This document shows, piece after piece, positions 1,629 through 3,318 of a stretch of 64,000 bases of DNA. The stretch's first letter is position 1. Each line of letters opens with the position of its first letter. The notes under the pieces were generated by a model, which was not told where the DNA came from, made no database searches, and was given only the letters and a program-made list of their open reading frames with translations. The stretch comes from the human T2T-CHM13v2.0 reference genome, Homo sapiens: NCBI RefSeq assembly GCF_009914755.1, contig NC_060938.1; one strand, written 5' to 3'. A program made the position numbers and the translations under genes.

Positions 1629-2532
1629 TGAGGTTTTTATATGTTAGAATTTCACGCCAATGGTGGCCCAAGATTCTAGACTATTTGTCTCCAAACTGTT
1701 TTCCTAAAAGACATTTCTAACATTTATCAATTCCCCGTGATTTCCTGTCTCAATTTACAAACTCCTGTGCTCTCTGGGAAGGGATAAGGCCATCTAAAAA
1801 CAAACAAACAAACAAATAAACAAAAACAAAAAACCCAGCCGCAGTTCCCAGCTGTCACCATGAAAAGGTGTGAGAGATGGTCCTGTGTGTTGAAATCAGA
1901 GAGGCTGCTAACTCCCTGGATTTCTTCTCCCAGCCGCATTCAACTCCAAGGCCACTGTTAGCAGTTTTGCCCTAGAGATCTGAAAGGAACCCAGGAATAA
2001 ACACGTGCAGTTTTAAAATGGTCTAATTTAGTCGATAAAAAGGTCAACACCAAAGGAAAAAAATGAAGCTGAAGAGAGCCAATCGGCAACAAGGTAGCCT
2101 TCTGGATTACGCAGGGCAATATTTTTCAAAAACTTTTTGGCTGGGACATGTGTTTGAATACATACATGTGTATGTACACACACGTACACCATATATTCAC
2201 ATCTAAAACGAGTCTCTTAAAAATATTTACTCTAATGGTGTATGATAAAGGTATATATAACTTTAAATACTTAAATGAAATACAGAAAATAAATTTAAAT
2301 TATAAAAACAAAAACATTTTAAAGTTCATGTGTGCATGCCTGATCACAAGTTTCACTGGGGTCTGGGACATATCAAGACAATCTATACATACATAAGTAC
2401 ATTATTGAGCCTGTTTATTTTTTGCCTCTTTTTTTTTAAAAAAAGATGGGACTCACTGCGTAAAAGTGAACTGATTAAAATCTTTGATCCAGGGTGCGGT
2501 ATCATTACCATTGGTATATGTGTGATCTTTCA

Positions 2533-2703
2533 TTTTTTTATTTTTATTTTTTTGAGACAGAATCTCGCTCTGTCGGCCAGGCTGGAGTGCAGTGGCGCGA
2601 TCTCGGCTCACTGCAAGCTCCGCCTCCCGGGCTCACGCCATTCTCCTGCCTCAGCCTCCCAAGTAGCTGGGACTACAGGCGCCCGCCACCACGCCCGGCT
2701 AAT
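2533..2703 (-). mobile_element. AluY right monomer plus tail (inverted copy of the adjacent AluY)
   Basis: Shares non-consensus bases and tail pattern with the Alu at 2710-3022. Confidence 0.95.
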
Positions 2704-2709
2704 CCTCCT

Positions 2710-3022
2710 GCCCGGGCGCGGTGGCTCACGCCTGTTATCCCAGCACTTTGGGAGGCCGAGGCGGGCGGATCACGAGGTCAGGAGATCGAGACCATCCTGG
2801 CCAACACGGTGAAATCCCGTCTCTACTAAAAAAAATACAAAAAATTAGCCGGGCGTAGTGGCGGGCGCCTGTAGTCCCAGCTACTTGGGAGGCTGAGGCA
2901 GGAGGATGGCGTGAGCCCGGGAGGCGGAGCTTGCAGTGAGCCGAGATCGCGCCACTGCACTCCAGCCTGGCCGACAGAGCGAGATTCTGTCTCAAAAAAA
3001 TAAAAATAAAAAAATAAAAAAA
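2710..3022 (+). mobile_element. Full-length AluY, CpG-rich, no 5' TSD
   Basis: AluY diagnostics ggatcacgaggtcaggagatcgagaccatcc and ggcgtg..cccgggaggcggagcttgcag. Confidence 0.95.
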
Positions 3023-3318
3023 GAAAGATTACACATATACCAATGGTAATGATACCGCACTCTGGATCAAAGATTTTAATCAGTTCACTTTTATGCAGTG
3101 AGTCCCATCTTTTTTTTAAAAAAGAGGCAAAAAATAAACAGGCTCAATAATGTACTTATGTATGTATAGATTGTCTTGATATGTCCCAGACCCCAATGAA
3201 ACTTGTGATCAGGCATGCACACATGAACATTAAAATGCTTTTGTTTTTATAATTTAAATTTATTTTCTGTATTTCATTTAACTATTTCATGTTATATTAA
3301 AAGATTAAAAGATCTTTT

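What the first reader, a model, noticed from the sequence alone, without database searches (positions are those of the whole stretch)
2255..3297. ~1 kb, ~98% identical palindrome built around an AluY
About 450-bp arms each contain ~280 bp of unique flank, the same patterned tail and the Alu right monomer. The 140-bp spacer is the Alu left monomer plus a 6-nt filler (cctcct). Both Alu copies share non-consensus bases (gagcccggg, ctggccgacag, gagattctgtc), so one was copied from the other. The full AluY has lost its 5' TSD. Inference: a fold-back/template-switch inverted duplication replaced the original 5' flank; double priming into a pre-existing palindrome is an alternative. Such closely spaced inverted Alus are normally depleted and unstable, so the spacer may flip between haplotypes, extrude as a cruciform, or form long dsRNA if transcribed.
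Basis: partly seen in the sequence, partly recalled or inferred. Interest (0 to 1): 0.75.

Follow-up and report, generated by a model that had tools for sequence, protein, structure and literature searches.

The report
Alu insertion that folded back
A near-perfect 1-kb mirror repeat on human chromosome 14 is likely the scar of a jumping-gene (Alu) insertion whose new DNA copy folded back and duplicated itself along with its neighbouring DNA; no gene is annotated there, so it likely matters as a fossil of how such insertions go wrong rather than as a working element.

Summary
The inverted repeat is real. Arms 2255-2703 and 2844-3297 are 97.3% identical ungapped (95.4% with two indels), with a 140-nt spacer. 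Their non-Alu part matches only these two places in the genome.

The 'lost' 5' target-site duplication appears to survive just beyond the right arm (3311-3318), in the antisense orientation and abutting an L1-endonuclease site (chance about 0.03-1%). That end also carries a snap-back filler, a 16-nt palindrome and the window's only 48-nt tandem duplication, which starts at the inferred nick. So the left side is likely the in-place 3' side and the right flank the intact 5' flank. The break fell at the TSD/Alu boundary.

Best reading: failed 5' joining during Alu retrotransposition. The cDNA end snapped back onto its own right monomer, and the hairpin was opened or displaced about 270 nt into the flank and joined to the TSD end. 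A later break at the same spot is the main rival. Similar steps are published for somatic or engineered L1 and R2 insertions. I found no germline Alu case in print (two targeted searches). No ape genomes were available. Probably neutral.

The parts
2255..2703 (-). Left arm: unique flank, 3' TSD, tail and Alu right monomer; inferred in-place 3' side of an Alu that is antisense to the window
2255..2270 (.). Outermost 16 nt of the arm, 13/16 match to 3282-3297; more mismatched than the rest of the arm, far better than chance
   Evidence: P=0.004 at the arm rate, 1.3e-4 for random local 16-mers
2524..2530 (-). Inferred 3' TSD copy directly after the tail; exact 7-nt match to 3311-3317
2532..2553 (-). 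Patterned A-tail of the left arm, 7 nt shorter than the right tail
2554..2703 (-). AluY right monomer; ends at the monomer/linker boundary
2704..2711 (.). Inner junction filler, 8 nt; 2702-2712 is the exact reverse complement of 2897-2907, including the right-arm-only base 2905; likely templated, but other templates exist (3469-3478, 115-125)
   Evidence: chance 0.6-3.6% by shuffling
2712..2843 (+). Spacer: AluY left monomer from its third base plus the A-rich linker; the fold-back loop
2844..3297 (+). Right arm: right monomer (2844-2993), tail (2994-3022), TSD copy with one change (3024-3030) and about 270 nt of duplicated flank; inferred inverted piece
3298..3310 (.). Outer junction filler: two short inverted copies of the TSD end; makes the 8-nt tandem repeat 3296-3313 and the perfect 16-nt palindrome 3305-3320
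3311..3318 (-). Inferred original 5' TSD; the TTTT/AA endonuclease site puts the first-strand nick at 3318|3319
   Evidence: site definition from PMC2912911
3319..3412 (.). Tandem duplication, 48 + 46 nt, starting at the inferred nick (plus or minus 1 nt); the only long-period, low-copy tandem duplication in the 64 kb window

Best explanation
This 1-kb inverted repeat is likely the scar of an AluY insertion whose 5' end failed to join normally, so that the new cDNA strand folded back on itself. Inferred steps, in the Alu's own direction (window minus strand): (1) L1 endonuclease nicked at 3318|3319 and a full-length Alu cDNA was made from that nick. (2) The cDNA 3' end, instead of joining the TSD overhang, added an 8-nt filler and primed on its own right monomer, copying monomer, tail and TSD; the left monomer became the loop. 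(3) The duplicate was carried about 270 nt into the downstream flank. Either the hairpin was closed, nicked there, flipped out and filled in, which gives today's order directly, or the new strand displaced the flank and the spacer flipped later by recombination between the arms. (4) The other end, a short TSD overhang, snapped back twice and was end-joined to the duplicate, with almost no flank lost. Since then the arms have drifted about 0.9% each. The anatomy is shown; the order and timing of steps are inferred. No function is proposed.
For: A TSD-matching 7-mer with an endonuclease site lies only at the right end, on the required strand: chance 1.3% for the 7-mer alone and 0.03-0.15% with the site, against 395 kb of strand background. 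The fold-back tip is the Alu's third base and the other broken end is the TSD, the two free ends that target-primed reverse transcription leaves. Scars cluster at that end: filler, 16-nt palindrome, and the window's only long tandem duplication starting at the nick (positional chance about 0.08% if uniform). The Alu has 9 non-CpG but only 2 CpG differences from a consensus of 29 close AluYs (control means 4.1 and 3.9), and bases 2857 and 2886 travel together in other AluYs (6 of 7 versus 3 of 31, p=2e-4), so some shared variants likely came with the source RNA. Published parallels: cDNA snap-back after full-length synthesis and before 5' joining (PMC11371274); hairpins by cDNA self-annealing, and hairpin cleavage, fill-in and joining at L1 sites (PMC11702581).
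Against: Timing is not shown. Five shared non-consensus bases, two of them CpG-decay type, and a shared change at the first TSD base fit equally with an Alu that aged in place before a later break. No sibling Alu shares more than 3 of the 10 non-consensus bases (38 loci), so no source family was found. The TSD match is only 7-8 nt; TSDs of 9 bp or less are rarer for full-length Alu than for truncated L1, and about 15 bp is usual (PMC2912911), so trimming must be assumed. The TSD test was framed after seeing the sequence. The filler matches a base that the left arm lacks (2905), which needs a later reversion or conversion, or another template. Published local cases mostly duplicate the upstream side (PMC10191854). 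No ape or haplotype data were available.
Confidence: 0.5

Rival explanations
1. Same reversed geometry, but later: a normally inserted antisense AluY aged in place, then a break at its 5' junction (endonuclease re-cutting of the regenerated site, or a replication template switch) was repaired by fold-back.
For: Explains the five shared variants and the shared change at the first TSD base as in-place mutations, and needs no unseen source element. Fold-back with a single-copy spacer is the standard route to human inverted duplications (PMC3907307).
Against: Needs the break to land within a few bases of the TSD/Alu boundary. Only 2 CpG differences against 9 non-CpG differences is a poor fit to long ageing in place (a weak test).
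Confidence: 0.3
2. One reading: the full Alu and right flank are original; the left arm is the copy and replaced the 5' flank and TSD.
For: The full Alu is contiguous with the right arm today; the 13/16 outer patch could be a return switch at imperfect homology.
Against: No TSD remnant on the left (4 nt at best); the TSD match, endonuclease site and all scars are on the right.
Confidence: 0.07
3. Two Alu cDNAs from one source primed head to head into a pre-existing unique-sequence palindrome.
For: Flank mismatches (7 in about 255) exceed Alu mismatches (2 in 157), and no arm-private CpG decay is seen among 35 Alu CpGs.
Against: The difference is not significant (Fisher p=0.49). It needs a spacerless 270-bp-arm palindrome beforehand and leaves the TSD and endonuclease site at 3311-3320 unexplained.
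Confidence: 0.05
4. Two independent head-to-head AluYs; a hairpin between them primed copying from one into the other and its flank, with a later central deletion.
For: Both differences in the inner 61 nt of the left arm are toward consensus, as if from another Alu. An independent pair, L088, also shares non-consensus bases.
Against: Independent pairs keep two different TSD sets and no shared flank (L088); here one TSD sequence occurs three times. Ectopic conversion of the inner left arm explains the same two bases.
Confidence: 0.05
5. Assembly fold-back artefact.
For: Palindromes are hard to sequence (PMC4057610); no reads were available.
Against: 12 mismatches, mostly transitions, two indels and structured fillers at both junctions.
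Confidence: 0.02

Closest known systems
cDNA snap-back 5' junctions in R2-protein-mediated insertion (PRINT; Zhang et al. 2024, PMC11371274; passages)
   Same: The cDNA 3' end primes on the cDNA itself, often after full-length synthesis and before 5' joining; upstream DNA is then joined to antisense insert sequence.
   Different: Engineered system at rDNA. The passages seen do not describe copying through the tail into 270 nt of downstream genomic flank; here the spacer order needs a hairpin opening or a later flip.
L1-associated foldbacks, inversions and inverted duplications (Mendez-Dorantes et al., PMC11702581; passages and Fig. S9 legend)
   Same: Hairpin by self-annealing of the reverse-transcribed end; hairpin cleavage, fill-in and joining to the other end; inverted duplication beside an insertion.
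   Different: Somatic cell clones and L1 or mRNA templates. Their local inversions and duplications arise at the reciprocal end, and their cDNA-end hairpins give large foldback junctions. Here the cDNA end folds and is healed locally to its own TSD end, in a germline Alu.
Short foldback inversions at somatic L1 sites (Nam et al. 2023, PMC10191854; section 11)
   Same: An inverted duplication formed during resolution of an insertion; rare (3 cases, 0.3%, plus 1 combined).
   Different: 52-220 bp and on the 5' upstream side; here about 450 bp, containing the element's own 3' half and downstream flank.
5'-inverted (twin-primed) Alu (Kojima 2010, PMC2912911; Nummi et al. 2025, PMC12016303; passages)
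   Same: Inverted left monomer and upright right monomer between two TSD copies; very rare (1 of 5554; 0.02%).
   Different: Twin priming copies RNA only; it cannot duplicate the tail, TSD and target-site flank.
Fold-back inverted duplications with a disomic spacer (Hermetz et al. 2014, PMC3907307; passages)
   Same: Single-copy spacer as the loop; short microhomology or an insertion at the junction.
   Different: Megabase scale, spacers of 766 bp or more, next to terminal deletions or translocations.
Short-range template switches in ape genomes (Walker et al. 2021, PMC7954356; section 8 part 1)
   Same: Local inverted templated insertion.
   Different: Median 12 nt, maximum 128 nt; no link to a TSD in the text read.

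Membership tests
AluY element | Dimeric Alu closest to young AluY copies | tested here: met
   Best genome matches 93-96%; 11 differences from their consensus. The label AluY and the Ya-lineage reading of 2857/2886 are recalled; no repeat library was available.
L1-endonuclease TPRT insertion | A-rich tail | tested here: met
   2994-3022 and 2532-2553
L1-endonuclease TPRT insertion | TTTT/AA first-strand nick site | tested here: met
   3315-3320
L1-endonuclease TPRT insertion | TSD directly flanking the element | tested here: not met
   None at the Alu start; a 7-nt match lies about 600 nt away, beyond the inverted piece
Twin-primed 5'-inverted Alu | Inverted part derived from the RNA only; tail and flank single-copy | tested here: not met
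   Tail, TSD and about 270 nt of flank are duplicated
Two independent inverted Alus | Separate TSDs and unrelated flanks | tested here: not met
   One TSD sequence, shared flank; contrast L088
Fold-back inverted duplication | Single-copy spacer between inverted copies | tested here: met
   2704-2843
Fold-back inverted duplication | Microhomology or templated insertion at the fold-back junction | tested here: inconclusive
   The 8-nt filler matches 2897-2907, chance 0.6-3.6%; other templates lie nearby
Retrotransposition-coupled snap-back | Break at the TSD/element 5' boundary | tested here: met
   Tip at Alu base 3; other end at the TSD
Retrotransposition-coupled snap-back | Duplication as old as the insertion (no lineage with a single intact copy) | not testable with these tools
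   No related genomes held
Recurrently toggling inversion | Both spacer orientations in populations | not testable with these tools
   One haploid assembly only

The most novel reading that the evidence does not exclude
A germline fossil of cDNA self-priming during Alu insertion: the reverse-transcribed end folds back, copies through its own tail into target DNA and is healed to its own TSD end. Retrotransposition itself would then be a source of long near-perfect palindromes in primate genomes, a class missed by TSD-based catalogues because the TSD is displaced, and the 140-nt spacer of this one would toggle between haplotypes.
Probability: 0.3. Interest if true: 0.65.

Novelty: new variant of a known kind. 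Interest (0 to 1): 0.45.

Why it matters
How the 5' end of an L1 or Alu cDNA is joined and how the second strand is primed is still poorly understood. Snap-back and hairpin outcomes are described, in the papers I read, from tumours, cell clones and engineered R2 systems. This locus keeps both broken ends, three TSD copies and both fillers legible in a reference genome. It also gives a search rule: for an element without a 5' TSD, look for the TSD beyond an inverted copy of the 3' flank. It is a compact natural test of arm-to-arm conversion and spacer flipping. Functional or medical weight is low: no gene is annotated in the window, the nearest protein-coding gene ends about 12.5 kb away, and the spacer should damp fragility.

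Tried and rejected
TSD or 5' flank remnant left of 2255: none above 4 nt. Paralog of the left flank 1310-2270 as an outgroup: only simple-repeat hits. RNA families in 1-6500: none. Sibling Alus from one source: none above 3 of 10 variants. Deaminase or A-to-I signature in the arm mismatches: changes are mixed in strand and context. One-sided mutation in the right arm, as from error-prone copying: rejected, since 2857 points to change in the left arm and 3030 and 3094 to the right. Other cases of the class: exact-motif scans gave 7 and 11, 9 and 3 matches, all examined; only this locus has long near-identical arms with flank. A fourth spacing range gave 40 rows, of which 2 rows (one place, L088) were examined and proved an ordinary pair; 38 rows are unexamined. 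These scans need exact AluY motifs and miss fold-backs landing in the tail or flank. Locus in print: not among the 49 rows of Table S1 of PMC2603318; no hit in the supplements of PMC7954356 or PMC4057610, searched with coordinate prefixes converted from recall; none of the 15 listed papers names BRMS1L; one search gave one paper and none. Lobachev et al. 2000 was not held. A random genome-wide background was not obtained.

Full report
Observation. The window holds an inverted repeat with arms 2255-2703 and 2844-3297. Global alignment gives 435 matches, 12 mismatches and two indels: 97.3% ungapped, 95.4% gapped. One strand folds into a stem of about 450 bp (-556 kcal/mol as DNA; no shuffles at this length). 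The non-Alu part matches only these two places in the genome. None of 73 other records (290 kb, enriched for AluY) has arms of 200 nt or more at 93% or more with a spacer under 1 kb. The feature is real and rare.

One arm was copied from the other. Against a consensus of 29 close AluYs, both arms share five non-consensus bases; 2857 and 2905 are non-consensus in the right arm only, and none is in the left only. Over 2908-2995 only the two arms are identical. Shared bases alone would not prove copying, since an independent head-to-head pair also shares some (L088). The 270 nt of shared unique flank does.

No direct repeat flanks the Alu start, whereas 24 of 29 controls gave one (two of the 24 are short and doubtful). 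The seven bases after the left tail (2524-2530) recur exactly at 3311-3317, on the strand required if the Alu was inserted antisense to the window, and are followed by TTTT/AA, the L1 endonuclease site as described in PMC2912911. The chance of such a match within 30 nt of either arm end is 1.3% for the 7-mer and 0.03-0.15% with the site; the left side gives 4 nt at best. The test was framed after I saw the sequence, so these figures are optimistic. The same end carries 13 nt of filler made of two inverted copies of the TSD end, a perfect 16-nt palindrome, and the only long-period, low-copy tandem duplication in 64 kb, which starts at the inferred nick. A rival reading is that the 7-mer is itself filler copied from the post-tail bases; even then the right end is the junction.

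Read in the Alu's direction, the order is: 5' flank, TSD, filler, inverted [flank, TSD, tail, right monomer, left monomer], 8-nt filler, right monomer, tail, TSD, flank. One broken end is the TSD and the other is the Alu's third base. These are the two free ends of a target-primed reverse transcription intermediate (model as in PMC2912911).

Mechanism (inferred). The cDNA end added a filler and primed on its own right monomer; the left monomer became the loop. The duplicate reached about 270 nt into the downstream flank, either by hairpin closure, nicking, flip-out and fill-in, or by strand displacement with a later spacer flip. It was then end-joined to the snapped-back TSD overhang. Each step has a published parallel. 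Snap-back after full-length cDNA synthesis and before 5' joining is seen with R2 proteins (PMC11371274, passages). Hairpins by cDNA self-annealing, and hairpin cleavage, fill-in and joining, are proposed for L1 (PMC11702581, passages and Fig. S9 legend). Short foldback inversions occur at 0.3% of somatic L1 sites, on the upstream side (PMC10191854). I put 0.5 on this happening at insertion and 0.3 on a later break at the same boundary.

Timing evidence is mixed. For insertion time: the break position; 9 non-CpG but 2 CpG differences from consensus (control means 4.1 and 3.9, controls chosen for similarity to this Alu); and linkage of 2857 with 2886 in other AluYs (6 of 7 versus 3 of 31), which marks them as inherited from a source. 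Against: no sibling shares more than 3 of 10 variants among 38 loci; two shared changes are of the CpG-decay type; both arms share a change at the first TSD base; and the TSD is short. Arm divergence is 0.9% per arm (0.4-1.8%). No arm-private CpG decay is seen; for the 24 arm CpGs 1.9-4.7 were expected from the flank rate (P 0.15-0.009), which suggests conversion, low methylation or a younger event.

Loose ends. The inner filler with its flanks is the exact reverse complement of 2897-2907, including base 2905, which the left arm lacks. Chance is 0.6-3.6%, and the 8-mer occurs 6 other times in the window, with 10- and 11-nt matches at 3469 and 115, so local templating is likely but not shown. 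Both inner differences of the left arm point toward consensus, which suggests conversion by another AluY (inference). The outer 16 nt are too mismatched for the arm rate (p=0.004) and too similar for chance (1.3e-4), and may be junction patchwork. How the 48-nt duplication arose is unresolved.

Recurrence. Exact-motif scans for head-to-head AluY pieces gave 7, 11, 9 and 3 matches, this locus included in two of the lists; all were examined and only this locus has long near-identical arms with flank. Of 40 further rows only one place was examined. A class is neither shown nor excluded.

Consequences. Closely spaced inverted Alus are depleted (PMC3215922, passages), but spacer length matters: 12 to 100 bp gave a 300-fold drop in recombination and 12 to 200 bp a 20-fold drop in rearrangements in yeast, while long single-stranded DNA removes that protection (PMC10164571, passages). 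A cruciform is therefore unlikely and a hairpin in single-stranded DNA possible. No gene is annotated in the window and no Rfam family was found.

Literature coverage. Eight full-text searches were answered. The two aimed at a germline Alu case gave one unrelated paper and none. Also read as passages: PMC10766186, PMC12016303, PMC3907307, PMC7999016, PMC4057610, PMC2603318 (Table S1 whole); PMC7954356 as outline and section 8 part 1. Most subscription papers and the inversion and structural-variant call sets were not seen, and could list this locus. Coordinate conversions to older assemblies are from recall.

Verdict. A real, probably neutral structural fossil; a new variant of known retrotransposition-linked fold-backs. 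Interest 0.45.

Noticed in passing
window 30326-30522 and 40300-40495: Inverted repeat pair (87%) bracketing about 9.8 kb; size and place fit the human-specific inversion P50 of Lee et al. 2008 (PMC2603318 Table S1). The coordinate conversion is from recall.
   Followed up: partly
L050, L051, L054, L070, L072 (near 1440-1750 in each): Five AluYs with an inverted left monomer, as from twin priming; three have a clear 13-17-nt TSD. The kind is reported as very rare.
   Followed up: partly
L088 506-1093: Two independent head-to-head AluYs, each with its own TSD, that share a long identical stretch and some non-consensus bases; possible arm-to-arm conversion.
   Followed up: partly
window 1613-1625: CTCF-like motif about 640 nt left of the palindrome (motif from recall).
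   Followed up: no
window 26576-27235: Closely spaced inverted Alu pair at 81%, the ordinary kind.
   Followed up: no
window 2640-2698 and 2712-2770: Inner quasi-palindrome, 59-nt arms at 78% with a 13-nt loop, from likeness between the two Alu monomers; it could nucleate an alternative hairpin at the junction.
   Followed up: no
window 40473-40918 / 54268-54712 and 31481-31881 / 45764-46166: Distant inverted repeat pairs of 400-450 nt at 89-92%; family not identified.
   Followed up: no
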